Part shown: in pieces, positions 36,490 to 51,468 of the stretch
Position numbering within the stretch: position 1 is the first letter of the stretch
How the letters are laid out: each line of letters begins with the position of its first letter
IMG/VR virus record: IMGVR_UViG_3300021254_000021
Coordinates: 188,373 to 252,372 of that record
DNA length: 64,000 bases
Source of the DNA: a virus
Lineage: Duplodnaviria > Caudoviricetes
Reading direction: 5' to 3' (one strand)
The notes under the pieces: model-generated
Told to the model about the DNA's origin: nothing
The model's input: only the letters and a program-made list of their open reading frames with translations
The model's database searches: none
Made by a program: the position numbers and the translations under genes

Positions 36490-37377
36490 ATGAAGCAGAA
36501 CGTTGAGTATACACTGGTCAATGAAGAAAACTTTTCCACTGTAATAAGCCATCTTAAATCAGTAGATGGCATAATGGGCTTTGACACAGAGACAAACAAA
36601 GATGGGTCAATCCACTTCATTCAACTCTATTCCCCAGTATCTAATCAAACCTTTATCTTTAATGGGGATGATCCTCAAATAAAACTCTTACTGGATATAT
36701 GGGAAAGTATTAACGTTGTTGGGCACAATGTTCAATTCGACTTAGCCAACTGTTTAAAGCAATATGGAAGTTATCCAAACCCTGTTGCCGACACCTTTTT
36801 ATTAGCCTGTTCCTTACAGGAAGATCAAAAAGGATTAAAGCCACTGTGTAACCAATTCTTTGGTTTCCCTATAACCACTTGGGAAAGTCTTTTTAATGAC
36901 TATGACTATTCTGATATGACTGGCGAAAAATGGCACTATGTAGCAAATGATCCTTATTACACTTACTTATTATTTGAACATTACAAGCAGTTAGGTGCTT
37001 ACCGTTTTGTTAAAAAGGTACATGAGATAGACATAAAGGCGATGATTCAATACATGGAAGCCTCTGTACTAGGTTTGCAGATTGATCAAGAGAAATTTGC
37101 ACAATATCTTGAGCAATATACCAACCAAGTGAATGACTTACAGACCAAGTTAAATGAGTATGCAGGATGGGAAGTGCGAACAACATCCACCAAAGATCTA
37201 AAGAAATTATTGTTTGAACAACTAGAGCTACCCACACCACCCATTACCACAGAAAAGGGGGAAGTGAGTGTTTCCAAAGAAGCTCTTAGCTATGTACCTG
37301 ATAAGGATGGTGTTATCACACTTATCACCCAGATTAAAGAATCCCGTTCGGTCTTAGCCTCCATGAAGAATCTTTAG
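36490..37377 (+). CDS. polA: family A DNA polymerase, N-terminal part (3'-5' exonuclease + thumb)
   Basis: ExoI GFDTET, ExoII GHNVQFD, ExoIII YVAND, thumb S.KDLKKLLFEQL.LP...T.KG..S. Confidence 0.9.
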   Translation: MKQNVEYTLVNEENFSTVISHLKSVDGIMGFDTETNKDGSIHFIQLYSPVSNQTFIFNGDDPQIKLLLDIWESINVVGHNVQFDLANCLKQYGSYPNPVADTFLLACSLQEDQKGLKPLCNQFFGFPITTWESLFNDYDYSDMTGEKWHYVANDPYYTYLLFEHYKQLGAYRFVKKVHEIDIKAMIQYMEASVLGLQIDQEKFAQYLEQYTNQVNDLQTKLNEYAGWEVRTTSTKDLKKLLFEQLELPTPPITTEKGEVSVSKEALSYVPDKDGVITLITQIKESRSVLASMKNL

Positions 37378-37468
37378 GGGATAAAGTTAAATCCTTAAAT
37401 CCCCTGACACCAACTTTATAAAAATTTTCCCCCTAAATGGGGATGTCTCCCTTTAAAGGAATTGAAAC

Positions 37469-37729
37469 ATGACAAAAAGCCTAAACGTTGAAATCTTTAA
37501 TAACAACACTTTCCTTCAGTGGTTTCCTGCTACATCCATTAAAGATGTACTGAGCTTTATTGCTAGGTATGAAAAGATAGAGCGTATGTCTGACATTAAA
37601 CTTTCTTATCTGGTTTTTCAGCAATCGAACAATGGTAGGTATAAAGGTCTTTCTGGCCGTTACACAAAAGTGTGTAGCATTCATGCTACGGGTAACGAGA
37701 AACCCAAATTCTTTGATTTGATTCAGTAG
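37469..37729 (+). CDS. hypothetical protein
   Basis: RBS AAGGA; behind repeat element. Confidence 0.6.
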   Translation: MTKSLNVEIFNNNTFLQWFPATSIKDVLSFIARYEKIERMSDIKLSYLVFQQSNNGRYKGLSGRYTKVCSIHATGNEKPKFFDLIQ

Positions 37730-37816
37730 AGACCATTAAGGGGATAAAGTTAATTCCTTAAATCCCCTGAGACCAATTTTACAAAAATCTTTAACCAACT
37801 TTAAAGGAGAAAAAAC

Positions 37817-37975: not shown

Positions 37976-38036
37976 TCAACTGTAAACTATTTATTGGATG
38001 GAAACATTCCATCCAATAAATCAAAAGGAGAAAAAC

Positions 38037-39032
38037 ATGAGTAACAACAGTAATTCCAACATCTACCTCAACCTTGACATCCTTCGTTTTATGCCACCTT
38101 GCAGGACTAATCGGGATGAAAATAACCGTCCAAAAACTATTATAATAAATGGCGGAGAACGTCTTTTCATTTCATCACAATGTATTAAATCCTGTCTTAG
38201 AAGTCAATTCGGCCTTCAGATGGATGTAGATAAAGACAAACTTATTGAAGATATAAAGGAATGTAATAAAGAGTATAAAGAGGAAGACTTACAAAAGAGT
38301 TTTTACCTCTCAGAAAGTTTTGTGAAAGATCTTATTAAAAGTAAAGATAAGGGTGGAGATAATGTTGTATTATTTATGTCCTTTAAGGAATTAGTCGAAA
38401 CATATAAAGCTAAAAAATTAATTTGGTGTAAGAAATTTCCTGCCATAGACATTTTTGGAAGAATGTATGCTTCTGATGAAGATGCTAAAACGGAGGCTGT
38501 TTCTCAAATAGCTCCTGCATACTCTGTCCAAGATGTTACTGTATTAGTTGATTTATGGGTTTGCCGTAACTCTTTGACAGATAAGAAAGGGTGTACAACT
38601 ATGGGTAATAATGAATTGTTATCTTCATTAGTTTACTTTAATGCGAATCTAAATCTATCCGAACTTCTTAATCGAGGATATTCTAAAGAGACAGTAATTT
38701 ACCTAGCTAAAACGTTTACAATGGGTATGTACACTTTGCGTCTTAATTCTGGTGTTTCTGGTACTTCTCATAACACCCTTCCATCTTATTGCCATATAAC
38801 AATAGGTAATGTCCTTCCATTAAATCATTCTTCTTTATTCTACACTTCCCCAGATAAGGATCATGTGATAGAGGAAAGTATTAGTAAGCTAAAGGAGAAA
38901 ATTGAGAAGGATAATAATGCGTTAAAGGCAATCAACTCATTCTATGGAAATCCAACGAGGATTGATTCCTTTGAGTTTAATCCAGATAACTTTACCTATT
39001 TACAAAACTCATTAAATTCAATGCTTGAATAA
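38037..39032 (+). CDS. cas7: type I-E Cascade backbone Cas7 (Cse4/CasC)
   Basis: PPCRTNRDENNRPKT...ISSQCIKS.LR, DIFGRMYA, EA..QIA.A.S. Confidence 0.92.
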   Translation: MSNNSNSNIYLNLDILRFMPPCRTNRDENNRPKTIIINGGERLFISSQCIKSCLRSQFGLQMDVDKDKLIEDIKECNKEYKEEDLQKSFYLSESFVKDLIKSKDKGGDNVVLFMSFKELVETYKAKKLIWCKKFPAIDIFGRMYASDEDAKTEAVSQIAPAYSVQDVTVLVDLWVCRNSLTDKKGCTTMGNNELLSSLVYFNANLNLSELLNRGYSKETVIYLAKTFTMGMYTLRLNSGVSGTSHNTLPSYCHITIGNVLPLNHSSLFYTSPDKDHVIEESISKLKEKIEKDNNALKAINSFYGNPTRIDSFEFNPDNFTYLQNSLNSMLE

Positions 39033-39067
39033 ATAGGAAACGTAGATTCTACCTAAGAAATTTTAGT
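39004..39067 (+). promoter_or_regulatory. CRISPR leader 1 (identical 64 bp to leader 3 at 41918-41981)
   Basis: AAAACTCATTAAATT...AGATTCTACCTAAGAAATTTTAGT abutting the first repeat. Confidence 0.85.
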
Positions 39068-39392
39068 GTAATTCCCCCATATAGGGGGATGTTCCTTTGG
39101 ATTCTCACTGAGTTTCCTTATGAAATCCGTAATTCCCCCATATAGGGGGATGTTCCCCTGCGGACAAACGCTTTGTGGTGCGTGTGCATTAGTAATTCCC
39201 CCATATAGGGGGGATGTTCCTATTATGGCTAGGACGGAAGCAATGTCCTTATAGTAATTCCCCCATATAGGGGGATGTTCCCAAGTTAGGTATGTGCTGT
39301 TTTCGTGGTAACAAGTAATTCCCCCATATAGGGGGATGTTCCTAGATTCTACCTAGATATTTTTAGTGTAATTCCCCCACACATAGGGGATC
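39068..39392 (+). CRISPR. CRISPR array 1 (type I-E), repeat GTAATTCCCCCATATAGGGGGATGTTCC
   Basis: repeats at 39068, 39129, 39192, 39254, 39315, degenerate 39368; spacers 33, 35, 33, 33, 25 nt. Confidence 0.97.
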
Positions 39393-39408
39393 TTTATTTG
39401 GAGGTTAT

Positions 39409-40179
39409 ATGCTTTCTGTTTTAACCTTAACTTTTGATTCTTATATTCAGTCTTTTGGAGAGAACTCTATTATAGCAAAACATAGAGACTCTGGTGACTT
39501 GCCTACTAAGAGTATGGTAATAGGAATGATTCTTAATGCTTTAGGGCATGATAAATACTCTGATGATCCAGACTCTAAGTGTTTACCAGAGGTATGGTCA
39601 AATAAACTTAGATTTGCTACTAAGAAGTTATACAAAAGAGATGCTTATAAAAAGACGGATTACTGTATAGCTAGGCGGAATGATAAAATTAAAGAGAATG
39701 ATGTGATAAAAAAAGATTACATTATCAATGGCAAATACCATGTTTACTTAGAGGGAGATAATGCTGATATAGTATATATTGCTAAAGCTCTTTTAAATCC
39801 TAAAAGACAGCTATATCTTGGACGTAAATGCTGTGTTTTACAAGACAGTTTGTGTTGGGATAAAAGAGAGACTAAGCCTACTATTACAGAGAATGTCCGT
39901 ATTGAGGATGTCATATTTAAAGATGTGAATCTAACGAAACCATTTCCTACTCATCTTATAGAAGGCGGAGATATAGCTCTATATAAGAAAAAGACTCTTA
40001 GTGAGGAAGGGAAACATTGTTTAGACACTGTGTTAGGCGGTAAAATGTGGAAGCCCACATTCTTCATAAAGAAGAAAACGACTCCATTGCAATTCGATAA
40101 ACAGTTATGGGGTGATATGCTTTGTTACTCTATAACCTATATGAAGTACAATGACTTAGAGGAGATTGAAGATGAATAA
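39409..40179 (+). CDS. cas5: type I-E Cas5 (CasD)
   Basis: IQSFG...R.S...PTKS.VIG.I.NALG; LYLGRKCC. Confidence 0.92.
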   Translation: MLSVLTLTFDSYIQSFGENSIIAKHRDSGDLPTKSMVIGMILNALGHDKYSDDPDSKCLPEVWSNKLRFATKKLYKRDAYKKTDYCIARRNDKIKENDVIKKDYIINGKYHVYLEGDNADIVYIAKALLNPKRQLYLGRKCCVLQDSLCWDKRETKPTITENVRIEDVIFKDVNLTKPFPTHLIEGGDIALYKKKTLSEEGKHCLDTVLGGKMWKPTFFIKKKTTPLQFDKQLWGDMLCYSITYMKYNDLEEIEDE

Positions 40180-40771
40180 TGAAACATTGCTTACTGTAAT
40201 AGATGTATCTCATTCTTCACGATATGCAGAGATAAAAGAAAATATGGATATTCTGCATGGTATTATATACTCAGCATTTTATCCCCATAAGGATGAAAAG
40301 AAATTATACCAGTGTGATGCAGAACAAAAAGAGATTAGGATTTTGTCTAATAAAGCACCTAGTAAAAGTCACTTAGTAGGCGAGTTCGATATTAGCTTTG
40401 ATGATATTCATATTTACGATTACTCTACTAGACTTAATAACATGACAGAGAAGAAGGTGTGTGATTTTATGTTGATTGGAAACCCTGTTTATAAACAGGA
40501 TGGACGGAGACTCCCTATTAAGGATAAAGAAGGGTGTGTGAAATGGCTGTTTGATAAGTCTAAGAATTTGGGGTTCATTATAAAAGACATAGACACTTCC
40601 TACATAGCTCCATATATAGGTAAAAATAACATTAAATTAAATACCGTACAGTTTAATGGTGTTTTAGAGATAACAGACTCCACCTTATTCAAGAATACAA
40701 TCTTAACAGGTATAGGGCATGAAAAAGGATTCGGGTTTGGTCTGCTATGGGTAGAAAATAAAACTCATTAA
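40172..40771 (+). CDS. cas6e: type I-E Cas6e (Cse3/CasE)
   Basis: LH..I..AF, F.L.GNP, V.F.G.L.ITD, GIGHEKGFGFGLL. Confidence 0.93.
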   Translation: MNNETLLTVIDVSHSSRYAEIKENMDILHGIIYSAFYPHKDEKKLYQCDAEQKEIRILSNKAPSKSHLVGEFDISFDDIHIYDYSTRLNNMTEKKVCDFMLIGNPVYKQDGRRLPIKDKEGCVKWLFDKSKNLGFIIKDIDTSYIAPYIGKNNIKLNTVQFNGVLEITDSTLFKNTILTGIGHEKGFGFGLLWVENKTH

Positions 40772-40822
40772 ATTGGAGTATTGGGTAAATAGAAACCGAG
40801 ATTCTACCTAAGAATTTTTAGT
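40760..40822 (+). promoter_or_regulatory. CRISPR leader 2
   Basis: homologous to leaders 1, 3, 4. Confidence 0.85.
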
Positions 40823-41073
40823 GTATTTCCCCCGTACAGGGGGATGTTCCTTAGTGGGCACTGAAAAAATATCTTTTTAATAAGTATTTCCCCCGTACAG
40901 GGGGATGTTCCTGTTCGCACCGTTTATAAATAAAGCTGTAATCGGTATTTCCCCCGTACAGGGGGATGTTCCTTTAAGGGTCGAAATGCCTTTAGTGCAA
41001 GGTGCGTAATTCCCCCTATATGAGGGATGTTCCTTTTCGACATTAATAATTCCCCCATATAGGGGGATGTTCC
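40823..41073 (+). CRISPR. CRISPR array 2, repeat GTATTTCCCCCGTACAGGGGGATGTTCC
   Basis: repeats at 40823, 40884, 40945, variants 41006, 41046; spacers 33, 33, 33, 12 nt. Confidence 0.97.
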
Positions 41074-41104
41074 GGGAGAGTTTCCATTTTAAAGGAGTTT
41101 AAAC

Positions 41105-41914
41105 ATGAGCGAAACACAGTTTAAAACAATACATCCAGAATATAAGATTGTTGGGTTTGATGGTACATCCCGTGTTTATTCTGGCAATCCCTCTTTATCC
41201 CAGATACCCAAAATTCTGCGTCATGCTGTTATTCCACATGAGGGTAACAAGTTTATGTATGTAGATTTGAAAGCGGCAGAAGTTTACATTCTTTGCAAAT
41301 GGGCTAAGTGTCAGGTGCTTATAGAGGCTTATGAGAATGGACAAGACCTCTACACCTTTATAGCCCAGACAGTCTTACATAAACAGACGATTGATAAGAA
41401 TGAGCGAGATACAATGAAGGTGGTGGTGCTTTCCATTCTCTATGGATCAGAGGGAAGTAGTGCGGCGAGGGCTCTACACATTACAGAGGAAGAAGCTAAA
41501 GCACTGGTAGATAAATTCATGTTTGCTTTTCCAGAGATTGCACAGTTTCAAGCTAATGCCTATGCTTACACTGTAGCTCACGGATACACTCAATCCTTTT
41601 ATTTTCGTCCTCGTATTCTTAAAGAGGATCAGTCTAATGGAGATGCTTCACGTAAAAGACAGTGTGTGAATAATGCTGTGCAGAATACGTGTGCAGACTG
41701 TCTTAAAATCTGTATTGGACAGCATGATAGAAAATCACCCATAAAGTTTATTACCACAGTCTTTGACTCTGTACTGTTTGAAGTACCACAGGACTTCACC
41801 ATAACTCAAGCTAAAGACTTCCTTTCCACCTTCTTTAAACCATGTGCCCCATTTAACTTTAGGTATGAGTATGCATTAGGGCAGACTTGGGGCGAGGCTC
41901 AAGATCAGCTTTAA
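41105..41914 (+). CDS. polA: family A DNA polymerase, C-terminal part (palm/fingers)
   Basis: TSRVYSGNPSLSQIP, motif A YVDLKAAE, motif B R...K...SILYG, N..VQ.T.AD..K, motif C TVFDS; own RBS AAGGAG. Confidence 0.92.
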   Translation: MSETQFKTIHPEYKIVGFDGTSRVYSGNPSLSQIPKILRHAVIPHEGNKFMYVDLKAAEVYILCKWAKCQVLIEAYENGQDLYTFIAQTVLHKQTIDKNERDTMKVVVLSILYGSEGSSAARALHITEEEAKALVDKFMFAFPEIAQFQANAYAYTVAHGYTQSFYFRPRILKEDQSNGDASRKRQCVNNAVQNTCADCLKICIGQHDRKSPIKFITTVFDSVLFEVPQDFTITQAKDFLSTFFKPCAPFNFRYEYALGQTWGEAQDQL

Positions 41915-41917
41915 AAT

Positions 41918-41981
41918 AAAACTCATTAAATTCAATGCTTGAATAAATAGGAAACGTAGATTCTACCTAAGAAATTTTAGT
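41918..41981 (+). promoter_or_regulatory. CRISPR leader 3
   Basis: identical to leader 1. Confidence 0.85.
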
Positions 41982-42129
41982 GTATTTCCCCCCCCCATAT
42001 AGGGGGGGATGTTCCTGATGCGTCCAGTGCATCATTATCTCATTTTTAGTGTATTCCCCCTATACAGGGGGATGTTCCTAGCGTTGCGGTAGACCTGATT
42101 AGTGATTTCCCCTATATGGGGGATGTTTT
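41982..42129 (+). CRISPR. CRISPR mini-array 3
   Basis: repeats at 41982 (expanded C9/G7 runs), 42051, degenerate 42102; spacers 35 and 23 nt. Confidence 0.9.
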
Positions 42130-42179
42130 GCTGTAATTAAATCCCCACAGACCAACTTTACAAAAATTTGGAGAGACTT

Positions 42180-44417
42180 ATGCCAACTACAGACCTTATA
42201 GAGGAAAGGACATATTCCTTTAATCTTTCAGACAAACCGTGGGTATTGGTAACAACAGAGAAAGGAAGTACAAAGAGACTTTCTTTAAGAGAGGTGTTTA
42301 GTCAAGCTGAGAACATTATTTGTCTTTCCAATGAGAATGTGTATGTAGATGCTTCTATAACCCTTTTGCTTTTTGCCATTCTCTATACAGCATATAGTAG
42401 AAATGCAGATACAAAAGATATGGATCAGGATGAGTTTACCTATCGTAAAGATGTTATTTTGGATTATTTAGATTCTGTGCATGACAAGTTTGATTTGTAT
42501 GATGCACAATATCCTTTCATGCAGATTCGAGAGGATTTTAAAGTAGAAAATGCCCCTTGTACTAAAGAAATTAAAGAAAGATCTAAACATGTTGGGTACG
42601 AGAAGGTTTCTAAGTCAAACTCTCTTAGAGCTAAAGGTAAAGAAATAAAGTGTTTGAATCCGTTTTCATCCTCATCCCATAAATCCTCTCAATGGTCTTT
42701 AAAAGAGGATTATACGGATGATTGGATAGCCCGTCACCTTGTTACATACAGACTCTTTCATTTGTCAGCGTCTGCGGCAAGAGGAGATTCTATTACGATA
42801 AAGGCGGGTGTTTTAACAAAAAATATTTCTCTAATGTTTATTACTGGTGAGACTCTGGCTGATCTATTCCATCTTAACTTTAAAGAAAAAAATCTTGGAA
42901 AGGAGATGCACCCTATATGGGAGCAGGATCAGGAAGCAGAAGATGCTTATATAAATAGTAAGGTATTTTTTGATAAAAAAGAAGGTGTTTATTATGATGC
43001 TTATTCTGATCATGCAGATATAGCTAGGATATTAACTTACAGTAATGTTTATATCAATATAGACCCATATAAAAAAGAAAAAGAATTTAGACAGTGCTAT
43101 CGTCTGCCAATAAAGTTGTTTAGTATTAGATCTAATTCCGATGGTAAAGACTCCTCAATGTATGATTGGTCATATCTTAGTGAAAGATTAAATATCTTTT
43201 GTGGCAATCTGGACAGAAACTCATACTCAATACAAAAAGAGATTCTATGGGATTCTGATAATGAGTCTTTAATTAAAGCAAAGTACATTTCTTTAGTGCG
43301 TACACCAGAATTAAATGATCAAAATTCCACTTACACACAACTATTCACAAAACCAATAAATCTTATTGGAAATGGTTTACTTAAAGTTGATACACAGGAT
43401 GATGACCATAAAGAGTACATACGAGATCTCTTTACTAAGTTATGTGGTACACTTGAGGCGTCAGAAAATAAATTTAAAAATAGGTGTGATATTGCTTTAA
43501 AACAACTCTTTAACAAAGATGACCCAAAGAAGAATAAAGGAAACAAGAAAAAGGAAACGATTTCAAAGATATATGAAAGTATTCATGTATCAGATTCCTC
43601 TTATGCAGAAACCCAATTCTTTGATTTCATTACATCAATAGCAGAGAAGCTATCGGATGCAAACTTACTAGAAAAAGAGGAGAATGCACTAAGTAAAAGG
43701 GTATATGCTCATTACCTAACTTCGTATAAAAACTTTATTAAAGACTACTGTCCCAAGCTGTACTTCTTACTAAGCGACAAACTAACACTAGGAGTAAATA
43801 CAATGAGTAAACTCGAAACTATAAAAGCTATATCCACAAATACTTATGCCTGTATGAAAGCTAACTTTAAAGACTTAGTACAGCTAAGAAGTATGCGGCA
43901 ATGTAAATATGTCCCAGACTTAAATTTAGAGGGCTTTCGTTTATTCTCGAATGGTGGAAGGAGAGATCACTATATGAAGGAAGGTATTAAATATGCTTTA
44001 TATTTGTGGTCAAACCACCAACATAAAATGGGTGATGGTTATGCAGGAGTTATTATAAAAGAAGACTTTATAAAGGAAACCACAAGCTACAAGAATACCT
44101 TTGGGTATGTGATGTATAAGTTAAGACCATTCTACACTGAAGATGAATGGAAAAGCAAACTACATAAATATGAATTAGCCTCACATAACATAGATAGGCT
44201 TGCCAAATTCATCCTACTTACTACTAAAGAGGCTTTAGACCATAATATAGATGTTCAGTTAGACTATGGCCGTCTTGCCTATTTCTTTACTCGAATCTTA
44301 GAGAATACAGGTAATACACATGAGTTTCTTGAAGATGTTATGGTAGGGTTTTACTTAGCTAAAGAGGAAGTAATTTCTCGTACAGGGGAATGTTCTGAGG
44401 AAAGTGAAACTCATTAA
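42180..44417 (+). CDS. cas8e: type I-E Cas8e (Cse1) fused in frame to Cas11 (Cse2)
   Basis: FNLSDKPWVLV, FDLYDAQYPFMQ (Cse1); C-terminal YALYLWSNHQ, TFG, LDYGRLA (Cse2-like). Confidence 0.88.
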   Translation: MPTTDLIEERTYSFNLSDKPWVLVTTEKGSTKRLSLREVFSQAENIICLSNENVYVDASITLLLFAILYTAYSRNADTKDMDQDEFTYRKDVILDYLDSVHDKFDLYDAQYPFMQIREDFKVENAPCTKEIKERSKHVGYEKVSKSNSLRAKGKEIKCLNPFSSSSHKSSQWSLKEDYTDDWIARHLVTYRLFHLSASAARGDSITIKAGVLTKNISLMFITGETLADLFHLNFKEKNLGKEMHPIWEQDQEAEDAYINSKVFFDKKEGVYYDAYSDHADIARILTYSNVYINIDPYKKEKEFRQCYRLPIKLFSIRSNSDGKDSSMYDWSYLSERLNIFCGNLDRNSYSIQKEILWDSDNESLIKAKYISLVRTPELNDQNSTYTQLFTKPINLIGNGLLKVDTQDDDHKEYIRDLFTKLCGTLEASENKFKNRCDIALKQLFNKDDPKKNKGNKKKETISKIYESIHVSDSSYAETQFFDFITSIAEKLSDANLLEKEENALSKRVYAHYLTSYKNFIKDYCPKLYFLLSDKLTLGVNTMSKLETIKAISTNTYACMKANFKDLVQLRSMRQCKYVPDLNLEGFRLFSNGGRRDHYMKEGIKYALYLWSNHQHKMGDGYAGVIIKEDFIKETTSYKNTFGYVMYKLRPFYTEDEWKSKLHKYELASHNIDRLAKFILLTTKEALDHNIDVQLDYGRLAYFFTRILENTGNTHEFLEDVMVGFYLAKEEVISRTGECSEESETH
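43803..44417 (+). CDS. cas11: Cas11/Cse2 from putative internal in-frame start (204 aa)
   Basis: AGGAG at 43790-43794, 8 nt before in-frame ATG (MSKLETIK...). Confidence 0.7.
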   Translation: MSKLETIKAISTNTYACMKANFKDLVQLRSMRQCKYVPDLNLEGFRLFSNGGRRDHYMKEGIKYALYLWSNHQHKMGDGYAGVIIKEDFIKETTSYKNTFGYVMYKLRPFYTEDEWKSKLHKYELASHNIDRLAKFILLTTKEALDHNIDVQLDYGRLAYFFTRILENTGNTHEFLEDVMVGFYLAKEEVISRTGECSEESETH

Positions 44418-44468
44418 ATTTGAGGATTGTGTAAATAGAAACCGAGATTCTACCTAAGAATTTTTAGG
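44407..44468 (+). promoter_or_regulatory. CRISPR leader 4
   Basis: closest to leader 2. Confidence 0.85.
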
Positions 44469-44741
44469 GTATTCTCCCTATACAGGGGGATGTTCCTAAC
44501 CCGTAAGTGTTGGGATCGGTTCGTTACACGTATTCCCCCTATACAGGGGGATTTTCCTCTTAGTGAGGTATGAGAATGAATGAATTTGACGTATTCCCCC
44601 TATACAGGGGGATGTTCCGGTGATGCCAAAGCTGAAATAAAACTAAAGAATAGTATTCCCCCTATACAGGGGGATGTTCCTAGACTTCCCAGTCTTTCGC
44701 GTTTCACACCTTTGTACTTTCCACTGTACGGGGGATGATAA
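44469..44741 (+). CRISPR. CRISPR array 4, repeat GTATTCCCCCTATACAGGGGGATGTTCC
   Basis: repeats at 44469, 44530, 44591, 44653, degenerate 44714; spacers 33, 33, 34, 33 nt. Confidence 0.97.
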
Positions 44742-44774: not shown

Positions 44775-47456
44775 GTGTTGAGTATTTCAAGAGAAATTCT
44801 TGGTAAAAAAGAAGGGGATGCTTCTTTATCTTTACAATACCACCTTAATGATGTGGCAACCGTAGCGGAGTTTCTTTGGGATAAATGGTTATGTTCAGAG
44901 ACAAAGAAAGAGATAGAAGCTGTTTTCCCTCAAGCGAGATCCTTTCTTTTACTTTCCTGTTACCTACATGACTTAGGCAAAGCCTCTACGGATTTCCAAG
45001 ACCGACTTCTCTCTGGTAGTAGAAATGGTATAGATCATGTTACTTTAACTAACTTTATGTTGTCTGATTATGTGGAATCCTTTATTGGAAAGAGTAAAGG
45101 AAGGAAATTATTGGAAGATAGTTTCCTTCGTGAGGTGCTTTCATATCATCATGGAATACTAGCCCTTATCCATTTAACACAAACTCTATCTACGTCAGAA
45201 GGTGTAAAAGAGGAAACGTTTAAAAATCAAAGGTATATTCAGTTTAGCCAGACTTGCTTATATATAGAGTCTCTTTTAGAAGAATTGAATTTATCAAAAG
45301 ATATTCTTACACTACCACGTAAAAGTATTCCTTTTTATGTACGAGACACTTTATCAGGATTGTTAATTATGTCAGACTGGTTAGGTAGTACCGTACAGTT
45401 GTTTCCTTACAATGATTTACCTTATGAGGATAGAAAAAAGAGGGCGTTAGATCAGCTTAATAATCTCCTAGTCAATACTTCGATAAAGAAATTTGAATCA
45501 CAGGAAACCTTCTTTTCAGAAGTATTTGGTTTTGAACCTAATGCTTTACAAAAGTCTGTATTTTCTGTGGATGTTTCCTCTAAAAGATTAGTATTTATGG
45601 AGGCCCCAACAGGACATGGTAAAACAGAGGCGGCTATAACTTTAGCTTATCGTTATTGTGATCTTACTGATAGAGGTATTTATATAGCAATGCCCACCAG
45701 AGCTACCAGTAATGCCTTATATAACAGAATCAGCGGCTTTATAAAGAAGGTGTATAATAACCCAGAGATGTGTAAGTTGTATCATTCTAAAGCAGACCTC
45801 TTCTTTTATTCTAAAGGTGATGATGAATGTAAAGAAGATATGGATATGCCTAGTTGGGTATTAGACCATTTTTTCAAATATAAGCTAACTAATGCGAGAA
45901 AGTTTATTCTTGGTACAACAGACCATGTATTAAAGATGTGTATGAATGTTAAACACTTTACTATGCACCATGCTTGCTTAGTAAATCATGTTATTGTGTT
46001 TGATGAGGTACACTCTTATGATGATTGTATGTTTTCATGTCTCTGTGCTTCATTAGCCCTTTTAGCAAAGTATAAAGTCCCCGTTATTATTCTGTCAGCA
46101 ACCATGCCCGATGAAAAGAGACAACAGCTTATAGAGGCGTATGGCAGAGATATGTCTTTGTGTCTTAATGCTTATCCCAAAAGTGAATCTATTATAGACG
46201 ATGATATAGTAGTGAGAGTTAAAGAGAAGGAAAAGAATAAAGTAGTATCTTTTGACCTTTCCTTACAACCAGAGTATTGTCCACCAACAGAACATGAAAA
46301 AGATGCAAGGGCTATAATAAATAAAATAAAGTCTTTAGGTAGCACTGGTTATTATGGCGTTGTTGTAAATACAGTGGACAGATCACAGGATTTTTATGAC
46401 TTCTTTACAGAGGAATTTGGTAAAGATAATGTCATTCTTTTGCATTCTCGAATGGTTGCCGAGCATAGAGAGGCAATAGAAAAGAACCTTATTTCCTCTT
46501 TAGGTAAAAAAGGGTTTAGTAAAAGAAAAGAGGGGAACTATTTTAAGGTAGTTATTTCTACTCAAATTGTTGAGCAGAGTATAGACATAGACTTCGACTG
46601 TTTGTTTACAGACTTGTGTCCAATGGATGCTTTAGTTCAAAGAGTGGGGCGACTGCATAGGCACAGTCAGAATGATTCTTATAGACCTAGAACATTAAAG
46701 CAACCATTCTTTTATGTAATGCAAGCCTATTCTAAAGTACAGAAGGAGGATGGTCTAGTTTCTTATATAACCGACTTTTCTAATTGTACAGACAATTATG
46801 CTAATCTTATTTATTCCCCGTACTTGATGCTTGCTACTTATGCAGAACTGATCTCTCTTAATGGTAAGTTAGATACCGTTACAGAAACAGAGAAGGTAAT
46901 AAAAGGAGTATTTAATTTTAACGCTGATAAGAGCTTATTTGGAAAGTCTTTAATGCAGATTCATTCTGAGTATGCTTTAGATAAGAGTGCTACGGAACAT
47001 GATACATACAAGGATATGTTTATAAAGTCGGAAGATCTTAAAGACTTTAAAAAGTATTTAAATAAGAATAAGAGTTTCTTGTTAGAAACAGGTTTAAATG
47101 AAGTCAAGGACGGAGAAGTCCGAGATACATTACCATCATTAGAAGTAATTATGCTTAATAAACAAATAGATGAGTATGGTAATACCACATATACCTCATG
47201 CTTTGATGGTTCTGTACTGCATACTTTTAGTAAAGAGGAAACAGATTTCCATACAATAAACCTACCCACTAAGATTGTTCGTAAAAGTGGTGGGATAAAA
47301 GCATTAAGGGAGAAGTTAAAAAGTATGAAACCTGAGAGAGTAAAGTTAAACAGATCTCCGTATTTAGTGTTTGAAGATGCGGAATTACTACCTTTACAAG
47401 ATACTGGAATAACTCTTTGGTATGATAGGGATAAAGGCTTAATGATTTGTGGCTAA
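44775..47456 (+). CDS. cas3: Cas3 HD nuclease-helicase
   Basis: HL.DV, LHDLGKA, HHG, SDW.GS; APTGHGKTEAA, DEVH, SAT, QRVGRLHRH. Confidence 0.96.
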   Translation: MLSISREILGKKEGDASLSLQYHLNDVATVAEFLWDKWLCSETKKEIEAVFPQARSFLLLSCYLHDLGKASTDFQDRLLSGSRNGIDHVTLTNFMLSDYVESFIGKSKGRKLLEDSFLREVLSYHHGILALIHLTQTLSTSEGVKEETFKNQRYIQFSQTCLYIESLLEELNLSKDILTLPRKSIPFYVRDTLSGLLIMSDWLGSTVQLFPYNDLPYEDRKKRALDQLNNLLVNTSIKKFESQETFFSEVFGFEPNALQKSVFSVDVSSKRLVFMEAPTGHGKTEAAITLAYRYCDLTDRGIYIAMPTRATSNALYNRISGFIKKVYNNPEMCKLYHSKADLFFYSKGDDECKEDMDMPSWVLDHFFKYKLTNARKFILGTTDHVLKMCMNVKHFTMHHACLVNHVIVFDEVHSYDDCMFSCLCASLALLAKYKVPVIILSATMPDEKRQQLIEAYGRDMSLCLNAYPKSESIIDDDIVVRVKEKEKNKVVSFDLSLQPEYCPPTEHEKDARAIINKIKSLGSTGYYGVVVNTVDRSQDFYDFFTEEFGKDNVILLHSRMVAEHREAIEKNLISSLGKKGFSKRKEGNYFKVVISTQIVEQSIDIDFDCLFTDLCPMDALVQRVGRLHRHSQNDSYRPRTLKQPFFYVMQAYSKVQKEDGLVSYITDFSNCTDNYANLIYSPYLMLATYAELISLNGKLDTVTETEKVIKGVFNFNADKSLFGKSLMQIHSEYALDKSATEHDTYKDMFIKSEDLKDFKKYLNKNKSFLLETGLNEVKDGEVRDTLPSLEVIMLNKQIDEYGNTTYTSCFDGSVLHTFSKEETDFHTINLPTKIVRKSGGIKALREKLKSMKPERVKLNRSPYLVFEDAELLPLQDTGITLWYDRDKGLMICG

Positions 47457-48103: not shown

Positions 48104-48215
48104 CCTAAAGCCCCACTTTGTTGGGGCTTTTTTAGTTTAATGGGATGGAAAAAAGAATCATTCTCCCCTCGCGCCAATTTTACAAAAATATTTAACCAAC
48201 TTTAGAGGAGACACC

Positions 48216-48356
48216 ATGATTAAGAATACAGTTTTTGCTCTTTTCCTTATTGCTTGCCTCTTTGTCCTGTTCACCAATGTTGGTTTTGAGACAGCTCTGG
48301 CTATAGTAGGTAGGGGTCTGGATATGATGATTGCTTATGTCAGCCATATTCCCTAA
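48216..48356 (+). CDS. small membrane protein (46 aa)
   Basis: RBS GAGGAG; hydrophobic MIKNTVFALFLIACLFVLF. Confidence 0.6.
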   Translation: MIKNTVFALFLIACLFVLFTNVGFETALAIVGRGLDMMIAYVSHIP

Positions 48357-48433
48357 ATTGGGTATGTTCCTTTATGTGGGAGTTTCCTTTTTCCTGATTC
48401 CCCTTCGTACCAACTTTAAACTTTTTAAGGAGA

Positions 48434-48783: not shown

Positions 48784-49389
48784 ATGATTCTGACTAAACG
48801 TTTTGATGAGGCTTTTTGTTTGGCTAGTGAACTGCACAGAAACCAAAAACGAAAGAATAGTGATGTACCTTATATGACTCATTTAATGGCTGTTTCCTCG
48901 ATGGTCTGTGAGAACATTGAAACCCTCTGTAAAGATCAGAATCTTGCAGAGGATTATGTGATTACAGCAATGCTACATGATGCAATAGAAGATCAAGGTG
49001 GTTTTAGCTCTTATGAAAAAATAAAGGAGATGTTTGGACAGTTTATAGCGGACAGTATTATGCTTCTTTCAGACTGTGTACCCGAGGGTGGTATTAAACC
49101 AGACAAACCAACTCGAAACAAAGTTTATCGTGAAAAGTTAAGTATAGCACCAAAAGAGATTGTCTTGATCTCATGCTGTGACAAGATCCATAATCTTCGT
49201 ACAATGGTTTCGGACTATGACCTTATAGGGGAGAAGTTTTGGGGTAAATTCTCACAGTCACCAGAGAATACCATAAAGAATTATGAAAGTCTGGGAGAGG
49301 TCTATGTTAAAAGATTGGGTAATCACAGAGTGATTAAGATGTACAGAGAGGCTTTAGATGCTTTAAAAGAGTTGATCCCAACTACCTAA
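48784..49389 (+). CDS. HD-domain small alarmone hydrolase (Mesh1/SpoT-HD-like)
   Basis: A.ELH..QKRK...PY..H, LHDAIED, DKIHN. Confidence 0.85.
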   Translation: MILTKRFDEAFCLASELHRNQKRKNSDVPYMTHLMAVSSMVCENIETLCKDQNLAEDYVITAMLHDAIEDQGGFSSYEKIKEMFGQFIADSIMLLSDCVPEGGIKPDKPTRNKVYREKLSIAPKEIVLISCCDKIHNLRTMVSDYDLIGEKFWGKFSQSPENTIKNYESLGEVYVKRLGNHRVIKMYREALDALKELIPTT

Positions 49390-49458
49390 TACTCTATCTA
49401 TCTTAGTTAGCTATTATATAGAACTCTTTAGGGGTTCTTAGGTTAGAAGGAGTAGAGT

Positions 49459-51468
49459 ATGAGACTTACTAAAGAAAAATTAATTGGGATTGGCGGCGAA
49501 AACTTCCCAAAGTTTAATCAGATTGTTTTCCTTGCGGGTGGTGCAGGAAGTGGAAAGGGGTATATCTTACATAATCTTTTAGGGATAGAGGGTAAGATAC
49601 TAGATGTTGATGAAATATCTGGCAAGATTTCCAAGATTCTTAGTAAACAAATTGACCCTAAGAAATATCATGGTGGGGAGTTTGCCACCTTTTTAGATCG
49701 TTTCCGTAAGTGGCTTAGAGATCCAAAAACGAAAGCTAAATTAGCAGAAGATCAGGAAGACTTTGATCCAGATATTGTGGGTAAAGTTGAATTAAAGGAT
49801 TATTATGCCTCAATAGAAAAGCGAATTTCGGATATTGAGGATGGCAACACTTTCATGTCTACCGAGTATGATCCAAGAAAGACTGGTGATTTCTTTAATC
49901 CAAAAAATCCACGTGATGTCTCATTAAGATATTGGTTTCAAAAGAGCATTAAAAAACCATTGATAATGCCTAATTCTGGATCTAAGGTTGTAGATAAAGA
50001 TTTACCTATTGATGACCATACATTAGCAAATATGGTTATAAATTCTCAAGAAGGGAGAAGGCCAAATATTATTATAGATACAACCTTATCTTCCCCAAAG
50101 AAAATAAAAGATACCATAGACTTATTAAATGAAGTTTTAGAAAAGGTGGGTAAGAGTAAAGTTGACCCGAAAGATGTTTCTTTAGTCTGGGCTTTAACAC
50201 CACTAACCATAGCTACTCAGCAGAATGCTTCTCGTGAAAGAAGTGTGGGTATGAATCAGATGATTAGCACACATAGAAATTCCACACAGACAATGAAAAG
50301 TTTGTTAGGTGGGGAAGCAGAAAGTTTATACCAGATAAGCTCTTACTTGGATGGAGATGTTATTGTTGTCTGCAATAATGGAAAGAAACTTAAAATAACA
50401 AAAGATGCCCCGTTTGAATATCGGGATGATGACACTTCCGTTCTTTATTACGGACCAAAGAAAAGAAAGAGCAATGATAAAGAGGACGATGATTATCATG
50501 TTTGGAAAGCTAAACCTAATATTGGGTATATAGATGAGTATTGTGCTTTTTATGCCAAGCACCGTGGCACACCTTTTATCCCATTAAAAGAGTTACCAGA
50601 ACAACCTCTCTTTGGTGGCAAGTTAGATAATGGTGAAGTAATAAAGGTGGGGAATCTTTTAGATGCCTATACGATGCCCGCTTTATTATCCATAGATCCT
50701 AATGAGCCTGATGCCGACATAGACCTCACTTCAGTAAAACCTTTCACACAGGAGAATAGAAAGATGAACATTTTAGAAGCAAAAGCTAGGACATACCAAA
50801 AAGTTAAACAGGCTTTGTCTGGAAAGAATGATTTAATTAAGACATGGGGTATCATTACTGCTGAAAACCCAATGGCTCATTCTTTTAGTGATGAGGAAAA
50901 TGCTAAGAGAGATAAAGCTCTTAGACAGCACCTAGCCAAATCAAATCTTGAATATCTCAAGGTTAAAGGGCAATATGGTAATCCAGAGAACTCGTTATTC
51001 CTGATTAACCCATCTTTAAGAGATATGACAGAGATTGCCACCAAGTTTGGCCAAGAGTCTTTTATCTTTGCCACCAACTCTAATGATGGAGACTTTAGCT
51101 TTGATGCAGGTTACTATGAGACAGAAGCACCTGCGGCAGAGAAAAAGAAGTTTGCTGATCCAGAGTATGTTGGGGATCAGAATCATTCCTATAAGTATAA
51201 TAAATCCATTACTAAGAATAATATTATTGACCAGAAGGATGCCGACGACTTCTTCACCTCAATTAAAGCACAGGGTAGAAAGTTCAAATTCCAGATTCCA
51301 TTCTTTGAATCTACTATCCGTAGAGCGTATGAGAGAATGACTCTATGTACAGAGGGTAAAGATCCTGACAATGTTCAGTATGACCTTATGCGTACAACTT
51401 TAGAGGCTGATAATTATTCTGCTAGTGGACGTTGGCGTATAAGAGGATTACTGTATCACCAAGATTAA
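49459..51468 (+). CDS. P-loop kinase (zeta-toxin/AAA_33-like) fused to a DUF3293-like domain
   Basis: FLAGGAGSGKG, IIIDTT, QNASRER; C-terminal WGIITAENP..G.YG.PE.S..FGQES. Confidence 0.7.
   Translation: MRLTKEKLIGIGGENFPKFNQIVFLAGGAGSGKGYILHNLLGIEGKILDVDEISGKISKILSKQIDPKKYHGGEFATFLDRFRKWLRDPKTKAKLAEDQEDFDPDIVGKVELKDYYASIEKRISDIEDGNTFMSTEYDPRKTGDFFNPKNPRDVSLRYWFQKSIKKPLIMPNSGSKVVDKDLPIDDHTLANMVINSQEGRRPNIIIDTTLSSPKKIKDTIDLLNEVLEKVGKSKVDPKDVSLVWALTPLTIATQQNASRERSVGMNQMISTHRNSTQTMKSLLGGEAESLYQISSYLDGDVIVVCNNGKKLKITKDAPFEYRDDDTSVLYYGPKKRKSNDKEDDDYHVWKAKPNIGYIDEYCAFYAKHRGTPFIPLKELPEQPLFGGKLDNGEVIKVGNLLDAYTMPALLSIDPNEPDADIDLTSVKPFTQENRKMNILEAKARTYQKVKQALSGKNDLIKTWGIITAENPMAHSFSDEENAKRDKALRQHLAKSNLEYLKVKGQYGNPENSLFLINPSLRDMTEIATKFGQESFIFATNSNDGDFSFDAGYYETEAPAAEKKKFADPEYVGDQNHSYKYNKSITKNNIIDQKDADDFFTSIKAQGRKFKFQIPFFESTIRRAYERMTLCTEGKDPDNVQYDLMRTTLEADNYSASGRWRIRGLLYHQD

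What the first reader, a model, noticed from the sequence alone, without database searches (positions are those of the whole stretch)
39004..44468. Four homologous CRISPR leaders, three of which supply cas stop codons
Seen: each array has a ~63-bp leader beginning AAACTCATTAAATT. The leader encodes the C-termini of Cas7 (NSLNSMLE*), Cas6e (KTH*) and Cas8e-Cas11 (ETH*) and starts 4 nt after the polA-C stop. Leaders 1 and 3 are identical; 2 and 4 form a second type. Inference: leader+repeat acted as a duplicating module inserted at gene ends, giving four independent acquisition/expression sites.
Basis: partly seen in the sequence, partly recalled or inferred. Interest (0 to 1): 0.7.

Follow-up and report, generated by a model that had tools for sequence, protein, structure and literature searches.

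The report
Phage cas genes each with own CRISPR array
A giant rumen phage carries a CRISPR defence system that lacks spacer-capturing genes and has four short spacer arrays placed between its genes, each headed by a copy of one 63-base leader that began as the tail end of the cas7 gene; all four arrays hold different spacers in a sister strain.

Summary
Four copies of a 62-63-nt leader start with AAACTCATTAAATT at 39005, 40761, 41919 and 44407. Each sits directly before a short type I-E array. Leaders 1 and 3 are identical (63/63), leaders 2 and 4 match 58/62, and the two types match 52/63.

The interpretation needs one reversal. The first 28 nt of the leader are the native 3' coding end of cas7. 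Cas7 homologues at 42-46% identity keep this C-terminal helix and are also followed at once by a leader and array. The module copied to the cas6e, polA-C and cas8 ends is therefore cas7 tail + leader + repeat.

Leader types swap between sites in sister strains, which indicates gene conversion. Fossils remain: a decayed repeat inside the cas8 tail and a leader fragment inside array 1.

A sister strain assembled as one contig keeps the same four-array order, but shares no spacer except an array-3 trailer remnant. All four arrays therefore turn over at the leader end.

The 252-kb phage has no cas1 or cas2, so acquisition in trans by a host enzyme is inferred. Transcription could not be tested. 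I rate this a new variant of the known phage-borne CRISPR systems that lack adaptation genes.

The parts
36490..37377 (+). polA N-terminal half (3'-5' exonuclease plus the start of the polymerase domain)
   Evidence: Pfam PF01612 1.6e-14 and PF00476 positions 2-86
37773..37788 (+). phage promoter-like motif CCAAYTTTAYAAAAAT; probable start of the unit small ORF-cas7-A1-cas5-cas6e-A2-polA-C-A3
   Evidence: 20 copies on the + strand against 0.8 expected. Promoter function is inferred.
38037..39032 (+). cas7 (331 aa from the ATG behind the RBS; the longest ORF starts at 37998). Its last 9 codons and stop are the first 28 nt of leader 1.
   Evidence: PF09344 7.8e-29. The C-terminal helix is conserved in P0001-P0004.
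39005..39067 (+). leader 1 (type 1, 63 nt), the source copy: cas7 tail + stop + 35 nt
39068..39396 (+). array 1: five 28-29-nt repeats, four 33-35-nt spacers, a 25-nt leader fragment (39343-39367), and a degenerate terminal repeat abutting the cas5 RBS
   Evidence: The fragment matches the L200 leader-4 allele 24/25.
39409..40179 (+). cas5
   Evidence: PF09704 8.9e-20
40172..40771 (+). cas6e; the last three codons and the stop lie in leader 2
   Evidence: PF08798 1e-26. Same length as the L005 homologue.
40761..40822 (+). leader 2 (type 2, 62 nt)
40823..41073 (+). array 2: three identical leader-proximal repeats, three 33-nt spacers, then two older repeats of another type around a 12-nt spacer remnant
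   Evidence: The remnant equals the 3' end of a full spacer in L012.
41105..41914 (+). polA C-terminal half
   Evidence: PF00476 positions 104-357, 1.6e-37
41919..41981 (+). leader 3 (type 1, identical to leader 1), non-coding here
   Evidence: 63/63 identical
41982..42129 (+). array 3: three repeats (the first has C9/G7 runs), one 35-nt spacer ending in a leader-like TTTTTAGT, and a 23-nt remnant shared with L200 and L013
42152..42167 (+). phage promoter-like motif in front of cas8
   Evidence: also present in L200 and L012
42180..44417 (+). cas8e fused to a Cas11-like C-terminal domain (from the conserved Met at 43803, preceded by GGAG)
   Evidence: PF09481 4.5e-23 on the N-terminal part. 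For the C-terminal 204 aa the best fold matches are CasB/Cse2 structures 3wa8, 4h79 and 5u07_J, with TM 0.5-0.63 but weak E-values. Pfam finds nothing there.
44370..44396 (+). fossil CRISPR repeat now translated as part of the Cas8 tail (VISRTGECS)
   Evidence: Local alignment score 16 to the array-2 repeat, against a maximum of 8 elsewhere in cas8. Clearer in L013, deleted in L200.
44407..44468 (+). leader 4 (type 2, 62 nt); supplies T-H-stop of Cas8
44469..44741 (+). array 4: four repeats, four 33-34-nt spacers, and a degenerate terminal repeat before the cas3 RBS
44775..47456 (+). cas3 (HD nuclease + helicase)
   Evidence: PF18019, PF00270, PF22590

Best explanation
[quoted passage not shown] It comprises Cas7, Cas5, Cas6e, a Cas8e-Cas11 fusion and Cas3, and it has no Cas1 or Cas2.

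In this phage clade the ancestral layout was cas7 followed at once by a leader and a mini-array. A segment made of the last ~28 nt of cas7, its stop codon, the ~35-nt leader proper and the first repeat was then copied to the ends of cas6e, polA-C and cas8. Recombination keeps homogenising these copies, so leader types move between sites.

Where a copy landed on a gene end, it replaced that gene's last codons and stop. The AT-rich 14-mer gives T-H-stop in one frame.

Each copy works as a real leader: new 32-33-nt spacers enter next to it, most probably through a compatible host I-E Cas1-Cas2 acting in trans.

All arrays lie on the coding strand, have no promoter of their own, and end in a decayed repeat just before the next ribosome-binding site. 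They are probably transcribed as part of the cas operons and cut out by Cas6e. The crRNAs then arm a phage-made Cascade-Cas3 against rival genetic elements; the one target identified here is the cas8 gene of sister phages.

Shown: the anatomy, the homology, the cas7 origin, the exchange of leader types between sites, and spacer turnover in all four arrays. Inferred: acquisition in trans, co-transcription, and the targets.
For: Anatomy.

cas7 origin of the leader's 5' part. Cas7 homologues at 95/46/42/44% identity align to the very C-terminus, with invariant Leu at the equivalents of L335 and L339. L008/L009 cas7 carries GAAAACTCATTAAA at the same codons (E-N-S-L). In L005, L007 and L008 cas7 is directly followed by a leader ending TTAGT and an I-E repeat. 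In contrast, L005 cas6e and L008 cas8 are followed by no array.

Copying and conversion. L1=L3 is 63/63 while L3 is non-coding. L200 has a type-1 leader at site 4 and a type-2 leader at site 3, the reverse of the window, and L012/L013 leaders are chimeric. A leader fragment in array 1 matches the L200 leader-4 allele 24/25, and a fossil repeat sits in the cas8 tail.

Gene ends are not truncated. Cas6e ends within 2 residues of its L005 homologue, and the Cas8 tail beyond GFYLA is variable among relatives.

Turnover. L200 is 92-98% identical in the genes and has the same order, with 4/7/4/4 spacers, none shared with the window's 4/3/1/4 apart from one array-3 trailer piece; the terminal repeats are conserved. 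L012, L013 and L014 encode an identical PolA-C protein but have different leader-proximal spacers in arrays 2 and 3 and share the trailer remnant. Leader-proximal repeats are identical to each other while older ones differ. Of the 46 inter-repeat pieces tallied across the window and related loci, 33 are 33 nt, with the first base T or C in 29 of 36 scored.

No Cas1, Cas2 (I-E type) or other Cas2 family in the genome, whose completeness is estimated at 94%.

Precedent for acquisition in trans by host I-E Cas1-Cas2: type IV-A3 plasmids (bioRxiv 10.1101/2023.06.23.546257).

No sigma-70-like site or phage promoter motif in the leaders; phage motifs lie at 37773 and 42152.

Target. The single L015 spacer matches cas8 of L200, L012/L013 and the window with 3, 4 and 5 mismatches in 33 nt, with AA on the 5' flank. 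My own binomial estimate of the chance expectation is about 1e-5.
Against: No host with a matching leader or repeat was found. Bacterial arrays with the same 3' handle have higher G+C, unrelated leaders, and no spacer against this phage.

Spacer differences between strains could also come from recombination with other phages rather than from integration.

None of the window's 12 full spacers has a match in cultured phages, and the two tried as 26-mers have none in IMG/VR, so the targets are unknown.

The 14-mer is invariant even where it is non-coding, and it recurs 14/15 in the distant L203 cas7 tail. It may therefore be a selected leader motif and not only a passive cas7 fossil.
Confidence: 0.72

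Rival explanations
1. The intergenic arrays are mainly operon punctuation. Cas6e cuts the polycistronic cas transcript at the repeats, which separates the cas7, cas5-cas6e, polA-C, cas8 and cas3 messages and leaves Cas6e-capped 3' ends. This would set the unequal subunit amounts that Cascade needs. Spacer content would be secondary, and the leaders would be conserved only because they travel with the repeats.
For: Every array ends in a decayed repeat immediately before the next gene's ribosome-binding site. The terminal-repeat/RBS/cas5 junction is kept in L005 and L203 at about 46-54% protein identity. L007 has a single repeat-like hairpin between cas8 and cas7, and the window has one in the 5' UTR of the ORF at 37469. 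The repeats fold into hairpins of -11.7 to -12.7 kcal/mol. No promoter was detected in the leaders.
Against: Punctuation needs one repeat, not a leader plus three to eight repeats with regular 33-nt spacers that are replaced between strains in a polarised way. The ~62-nt leader is conserved as DNA and is unstructured as RNA, z = +0.5. This reading is compatible with the best explanation as a second function.
Confidence: 0.15
2. The extra leader-array copies are neutral by-products of frequent recombination between repeats in a highly mosaic phage region. Spacer differences between strains would reflect exchange of whole array segments with other phages, with no integration at these leaders.
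For: The region is mosaic. L015 has an identical PolA-C protein but different neighbours on both sides. Gene order differs among relatives: L203 has 7-A-6-A-5-A, the P0007 contig has gaps after cas7, cas5, cas6e and cas8, and L202 is compact. Deletion scars are visible in arrays 2 and 3. There is no integrase in the phage.
Against: The four-array order is kept in two strains that share no spacers. Trailer ends are shared while leader ends differ, and the repeats nearest the leader are identical copies, as expected from repeat duplication at integration. Most spacers have one regular length, and the first base is biased. The distal 14-mer and the ATTCTAC core are invariant across all sites and strains.
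Confidence: 0.1
3. The copies are an assembly artefact, a collapse or mis-join of one array.
For: Short-read unitigs break inside the leaders (L016, L018, L006), which shows that the leaders are repeated k-mers.
Against: Each array has unique spacers and its own unique flanking genes. Logan contigs span whole arrays with both flanks (L016, L018). L200, from another run, carries all four arrays in one 14.8-kb contig.
Confidence: 0.02

Closest known systems
CRISPR-Cas loci of huge phages that lack adaptation genes and have compact arrays (Al-Shayeb et al. 2020, PMC7162821)
   Same: A virus genome over 200 kb. No Cas1, Cas2 or Cas4. Arrays of 3-6 repeats, against the reported median of six. Spacers presumed to target competing phages. 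Possible reliance on host Cas proteins.
   Different: That paper, as read here, does not describe arrays placed between the individual cas genes, several homologous leaders in one locus, or leaders that overlap gene ends. Here the full interference set including Cas3 is present.
Canonical type I-E CRISPR-Cas (Escherichia coli K-12 type)
   Same: Cse1, Cse2-like, Cas7, Cas5, Cas6e and Cas3 proteins. A palindromic 28-29-nt repeat with a 61-nt period. Orientation with the ...GGGGAT handle at the 3' end. A leader of about 60 nt upstream of the first repeat. In E. coli the Cas1-Cas2 anchoring site lies at -50 to -53 (PMC5224486); here the invariant 14-mer lies at -63 to -50.
   Different: No cas1-cas2. 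Gene order is 7-5-6 / 8-11 fusion / 3 instead of 3-8-11-7-5-6-1-2. Four arrays sit inside the operon. A DNA polymerase gene half lies among the cas genes. No IHF-site consensus was recognised.
Type IV-A3 plasmid CRISPR-Cas acquiring spacers in trans with host type I-E Cas1-Cas2 (Benz et al., bioRxiv 10.1101/2023.06.23.546257)
   Same: A CRISPR system on a mobile element, without an adaptation module, whose arrays nevertheless vary. It is used in conflicts between related mobile elements. It depends on leader and repeat compatibility with a host I-E system.
   Different: There the mechanism was shown by experiment and the host system is known. Here it is an inference and no compatible host leader was found.
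Regulatory mini-arrays and cr-like RNAs between cas genes (Shmakov et al. 2023, PMC10120712; CreTA)
   Same: Repeat-like elements and mini-arrays located between cas genes of type I systems, including I-E near cas3 and cas8.
   Different: Those have one degenerate repeat pair and a spacer partly matching a cas promoter. Here the arrays have full leaders and several regular spacers that turn over, with no match to the phage's own genome at 9 or fewer mismatches. The one leader-like 'spacer' is strain-specific and looks like a recombination scar.
Vibrio phage ICP1 type I-F CRISPR-Cas
   Same: A phage-encoded type I system with more than one array, used against a rival genetic element (own knowledge; cited as ref. 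26 in PMC7162821).
   Different: ICP1 has its own Cas1 and Cas2-3, and two arrays flanking the cas operon rather than arrays after the individual genes.

Membership tests
Type I-E CRISPR-Cas | Cascade subunits Cas8e (Cse1), Cas7 (Cse4), Cas5e and Cas6e | tested here: met
   Pfam PF09481 4.5e-23, PF09344 7.8e-29, PF09704 8.9e-20, PF08798 1e-26, all above the curated cut-offs
Type I-E CRISPR-Cas | Small subunit Cas11 (Cse2) | tested here: inconclusive
   No Pfam hit in the C-terminal 204 aa of Cas8. The AlphaFold model has pLDDT 67. Its three best Foldseek PDB matches are CasB/Cse2 (3wa8, 4h79) and Cascade chain 5u07_J, with TM 0.5-0.63 but E-values of 0.1-0.6.
Type I-E CRISPR-Cas | Cas3 with HD nuclease and SF2 helicase | tested here: met
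   PF18019 2.8e-22, PF00270, PF22590 2.5e-34
Type I-E CRISPR-Cas | Palindromic repeat of 28-29 nt and a repeat-spacer period of 61 nt | tested here: met
   Period 61-63 nt in all arrays. Hairpins of 6-7 pairs at -11.7 to -12.7 kcal/mol.
Type I-E CRISPR-Cas | Adaptation module Cas1-Cas2 | tested here: not met
   No match to PF01867, PF09707 or PF09827 in the 252-kb genome, whose completeness is estimated at 94%; the control genomes were detected
Functional CRISPR leader (integration site) | Lies directly upstream of the first repeat, with new spacers added at that end | tested here: met
   Strain comparison shows leader-proximal spacers differ while trailer remnants and terminal repeats are shared, in all four arrays. 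This is indirect: no integration event was observed.
Functional CRISPR leader (integration site) | Binding sites for IHF and for Cas1-Cas2 (IAS at -50 to -53 in E. coli) | not testable with these tools
   Only a positional analogy is available: the invariant 14-mer lies at -63 to -50 and the invariant ATTCTAC core at about -20 (PMC5224486). By eye, no convincing IHF consensus.
Functional CRISPR leader (promoter) | Contains the promoter of the pre-crRNA | tested here: inconclusive
   No sigma-70-like site and no phage motif in any leader. The host's promoter type is unknown.
Adaptation-less CRISPR-Cas of huge phages | Encoded on a phage genome over 200 kb, lacks Cas1/2/4, and has compact arrays | tested here: met
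   Virus record of 252,372 bp. No Cas1 or Cas2. Arrays of 3-6 repeats. Cas4 was not searched.
Regulatory mini-array / cr-like RNA | A spacer partly complementary to a promoter or 5' region of the element's own genes | tested here: not met
   No full-length window spacer matches the genome at 9 or fewer mismatches. The 25-nt leader-like piece matches the leaders 20-21/25, but it is absent from L200 and equals another leader allele 24/25.

The most novel reading that the evidence does not exclude
In this clade of rumen jumbo phages the unit 'gene + leader + mini-array' may behave as a shuffling cassette. The shared leaders and repeats would provide portable homology that rearranges the cas genes (orders 7-5-6-8-3, 7-6-5 and 7-5/6-polA-8-3 are seen) and spreads leaders onto new gene ends. 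The leader's distal 14-mer, which is tolerated inside coding sequence, would be a Cas1-Cas2 anchoring site that lets each unit capture spacers independently using a host integrase. The same repeats would also serve as Cas6e cut sites that divide the operon transcript and tune subunit ratios. Sister phages would use these arrays against each other's cas genes.
Probability: 0.25. Interest if true: 0.8.

Novelty: new variant of a known kind. Interest (0 to 1): 0.6.

Why it matters
Phage-borne CRISPR systems without adaptation genes are known, but how they renew their spacers and why their arrays stay tiny are open questions.

This locus gives a natural comparison. It has four equivalent leaders in one operon, each with its own short array, and all four are renewed between strains that are otherwise 92-98% identical. 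This argues that the roughly 62-nt module is sufficient as an integration site, and it defines a minimal portable leader that could be tested directly with a host I-E Cas1-Cas2.

The locus also shows a coding sequence (the cas7 tail) being carried along as part of a leader, and a CRISPR repeat being absorbed into a protein tail.

One spacer points to sister phages attacking each other's cas8.

The practical importance is modest. The value lies in CRISPR evolution and phage-phage conflict.

Tried and rejected
- Close relatives in IMG/VR, by the Cas7 protein and by a Cas7 alignment: none.
- Megablast and blastn of the locus against cultured phages: only chance-level hits.
- Exact 26-mers of two leader-proximal spacers in IMG/VR: none.
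- Leader pattern scan of JGI metagenomes and IMG/VR: 52 and 1 hits, all chance, none followed by a repeat.
- Host search by arrays with the same 3' handle in 185,579 species genomes. There were many hits, mostly Streptomyces. Rumen PVC candidates (Kiritimatiellae, Verrucomicrobia, RUG13889) have related repeats. None has a spacer against the phage, and their leaders are no more similar to the phage leaders than random sequence, with scores of 11 or less against a null maximum of 12. The host is left unresolved.
- Self-targeting by the window's spacers: none.
- Reading the 25-nt leader-like spacer as a regulatory crRNA: rejected as a recombination scar.
- Rfam: no CRISPR repeat family or other RNA family in the locus.
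- Pfam on the Cas8 C-terminal part: nothing.
- IHF consensus in the leader: inspected by eye only, not convincing.
- The P0007 contig (GCA_018396375.1) could not be read as DNA.

Full report
**What is there.** The window is the last 64 kb of a 252,372-bp virus record.

Between 36.5 and 47.5 kb, all on the + strand, lie the following features (Pfam; sequence; repeats):
- polA N-terminal half (36490-37377)
- two small ORFs
- cas7 (38037-39032)
- array 1
- cas5 (39409-40179)
- cas6e (40172-40771)
- array 2
- polA C-terminal half (41105-41914)
- array 3
- cas8e with a Cas11-like C-terminal domain (42180-44417)
- array 4
- cas3 (44775-47456)

The repeats are 28-29 nt with a 61-nt period. They fold into hairpins of 6-7 pairs with a 7-8-nt 3' tail, which is the type I-E pattern. 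No other CRISPR repeat occurs in the genome. The genome has no Cas1, no I-E Cas2 and no other Cas2 family.

**The observation.** It is correct in every detail. The 14-mer AAACTCATTAAATT occurs exactly four times in the genome, each time 62-63 nt before the first repeat of an array. Leaders 1 and 3 are identical (63/63). Leaders 2 and 4 match 58/62. The two types match 52/63. The cas7, cas6e and cas8 reading frames end inside the leader, as NSLNSMLE*, KTH* and ETH*. Leader 3 starts 4 nt after the polA-C stop.

**Where the leader came from.** Four Cas7 homologues (95, 46, 42 and 44% identical) align to the last residue and keep the C-terminal helix L-x-[ND]-x-L-x-x-[ML]-[LI]. In L008/L009 the same codons read GAA AAC TCA TTA AAA (E-N-S-L-K), matching the nucleotides at the start of the window's 'leader'.

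In L005, L007 and L008 cas7 is followed at once by a leader ending in TTAGT and an I-E array. In L005 the core GGAAAC-TAGATTCTACCTA is also kept. In contrast, cas6e in L005 and cas8 in L008 are followed by no array.

So cas7 -> leader -> array is the ancestral arrangement, and the first 28 nt of the module are native cas7 coding sequence. The copies behind cas6e, polA-C and cas8 carry a cas7 tail that is no longer read as such. At leader 3 it is untranslated. At leaders 2 and 4 only ACT CAT TAA is read, in another frame.

Cas6e is not shortened: it ends within two residues of its L005 homologue. The Cas8 tail after the conserved GFYLA is variable among relatives.

**Copying is still going on.** Strains that encode a PolA-C protein identical to the window's (L012-L015), and a strain at 92-98% nucleotide identity (L200), show the two leader types at different sites. 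L200 has type 1 at site 4 and type 2 at site 3, the reverse of the window. L012 and L013 have chimeric leaders. The type-1 allele always sits at site 1, where it must encode the Cas7 tail.

Scars remain:
- Array 1 of the window contains a 25-nt piece that matches the L200 leader-4 allele 24/25. It is absent from L200 array 1.
- The first 'spacer' of array 3 ends in the leader-like TTTTTAGT.
- The last 15 or so codons of Cas8 run through a decayed repeat at 44370-44396. Its local alignment score is 16, against at most 8 anywhere else in cas8. It is clearer in L013 and deleted in L200.
- L007 has a solitary repeat-like hairpin in the same place after cas8, which may be the ancestor of this fossil.

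**Are all four arrays alive?** L200 is a single 14.8-kb contig from a different run. It has the same order, cas7-A1-cas5-cas6e-A2-polA-C-A3-cas8-A4-cas3, with 4, 7, 4 and 4 spacers. None is shared with the window, except a 23-28-nt piece at the trailer end of array 3. The decayed terminal repeats next to the following ribosome-binding sites are conserved.

L012, L013 and L014 differ from the window and from each other at the leader ends of arrays 2 and 3, yet share the trailer remnant GACCTGATTA plus the terminal repeat. The window's short pieces (12 nt in array 2, 23 nt in array 3) are deletion products of full spacers still present in those strains.

The repeats nearest a leader are identical to one another while older ones differ, as expected if the first repeat is duplicated at each integration. 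Of the 46 inter-repeat pieces tallied across the window and related loci, 33 are 33 nt, and the first base is T or C in 29 of 36 scored.

Together these are the usual signs of polarised acquisition, at all four sites. Because the phage has no integrase, I infer acquisition in trans by a host I-E Cas1-Cas2. This was shown experimentally for plasmid type IV-A3 systems and suggested for huge phages. No compatible host was found.

**Expression.** No sigma-70-like site and no copy of the phage's own promoter-like motif lies in a leader. That motif, CCAAYTTTAYAAAAAT, has 20 copies on the + strand against 0.8 expected. In the locus it occurs at 37410, 37773, 42152 and 47493. The first strong terminator follows the ORF after cas3, at 48107. 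As RNA the leader is unstructured (z = +0.5).

The simplest reading is two transcription units, 37773 -> A3 and 42152 -> cas3, with the arrays transcribed together with the cas genes and released by Cas6e. This would also cut the messenger between genes. That may be a second function, and I list it as a rival.

**Targets.** No window spacer matches the phage itself or cultured phages, and the two spacers tried as 26-mers have no match in IMG/VR.

One target was found. L015 is a relative in which polA-C, the leader and one spacer are followed directly by the homologue of the window's ORF 47528. It therefore lacks cas8-A4-cas3 at this place. Its spacer matches the 5' part of cas8 in L200 (3 mismatches), in L012/L013 (4) and in the window (5, at 42224-42256), with AA on the 5' side. 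My own binomial estimate of the chance expectation is about 1e-5. This points to conflict between sister phages.

**Wider clade.**
- L203 (Cas5 54% identical) has cas7-array-cas6e-array-cas5-array. Its cas7 tail reads ...LNKLIK-THKI*, encoded by AAAACTCATAAAATT, which matches the window motif 14/15.
- A contig carrying P0007 has gaps of 218-445 nt after cas7, cas5, cas6e and cas8.
- L202 (40% identical) is compact.

Interleaved arrays are thus a feature of part of this phage clade, and gene order varies. The recurrence of the 14-mer in L203, together with its invariance where it is non-coding, suggests that it is under selection as part of the leader. In E. coli the Cas1-Cas2 anchoring site lies at -50 to -53 (PMC5224486); the 14-mer lies at -63 to -50. 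This is a positional analogy only.

**Cas8e-Cas11.** The C-terminal 204 residues start at a Met that is invariant in five relatives and is preceded by GGAG. Pfam finds nothing there. The model is of moderate confidence (pLDDT 67). Its best PDB neighbours are CasB/Cse2 proteins, with TM 0.5-0.63 but weak E-values. A fusion, possibly also translated from the internal start, is likely but not proven.

**Verdict.** However, the module starts with the cas7 tail rather than giving cas7 its tail. The copying is continuing gene conversion. Acquisition must be in trans. Expression from the leaders is unshown.

Compared with the literature read here, this is a new variant of the known adaptation-less phage CRISPR systems. 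No description of arrays after each cas gene with homologous leaders overlapping gene ends turned up, though the search covers only open-access papers.

Noticed in passing
window 36490-37377 and 41105-41914; L005, L015, L200: The family A DNA polymerase is split into two ORFs 3.7 kb apart, with cas7, cas5, cas6e and two arrays between them. The split is kept in relatives, but the genes between and around the halves differ. L015 has an identical PolA-C protein but other neighbours on both sides.
   Followed up: partly
L015:1267-1299 versus window 42224-42256 (also L200 8869, L012 1391, L013 1246): A relative that lacks cas8-array 4-cas3 at this place carries a single spacer matching the 5' part of the sister phages' cas8 gene (3-5 mismatches in 33 nt, AA on the 5' flank). 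This suggests sister phages target each other's CRISPR genes.
   Followed up: partly
window 37423-37451 and 48346-48370: Two solitary repeat-like hairpins (TTCCCCC-TAAAT-GGGGATGT and ATTCCC-TAAAT-TGGGTATGTTCC) flank the CRISPR locus. The first lies between a promoter-like motif and the RBS of the 86-aa ORF at 37469. They could be Cas6e binding or cutting sites.
   Followed up: no
window 12857-48189, 20 sites (e.g. 37410, 37773, 42152, 47493, 48174): The motif CCAAYTTTAYAAAAAT, usually preceded by a GGGG...CCCC dyad, heads many genes on the + strand (20 copies against 0.8 expected). A related form, TTTTCAAAAATTTT, plays the same part in L005 and L203. It is probably a phage-specific promoter with an upstream terminator or operator.
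   Followed up: partly
window 43790-43805: The Cas11-like domain begins at a Met that is invariant in five relatives, 8 nt after a GGAG. Cas11 may therefore also be made separately from an internal start, as is known for some other type I subtypes (own knowledge).
   Followed up: partly
G000:C1:14751-15026 (outside the window): The phage encodes an HU/IHF-family DNA-bending protein (PF00216, 1.7e-28). Such proteins assist spacer integration in some CRISPR systems. No link to this locus is shown.
   Followed up: no
window 41982-42015; L200 and L014 repeats: The C and G runs of the repeat stems vary in length (C5 to C9, G5 to G7) between repeats and between strains. This may be real slippage or homopolymer sequencing error.
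   Followed up: no
40 unique spacers of the window, L012-L015 and L200: Mean spacer G+C is 41%, against 35.8% for random 32-mers of the phage (Mann-Whitney p = 2e-4). Many spacers therefore come from DNA richer in G+C than this phage.
   Followed up: partly
L203:2300-2345 versus L005:8815-8835: The cas5 gene of L203 ends ATCAAAAGTGAATAAAAAC (IKSE*), identical over 19 nt to the cas7 end of L005, and is followed by a homologous leader. This may be a second case of a cas7-tail module on another gene's end. It is ambiguous, because native Cas5 tails are similar (IESQ, IEDE).
   Followed up: partly
window 48784-51468: Downstream of the locus lie an HD_4 domain protein and a 669-aa protein with DUF3293 and a weak zeta-toxin-like match. 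They were not examined further.
   Followed up: no
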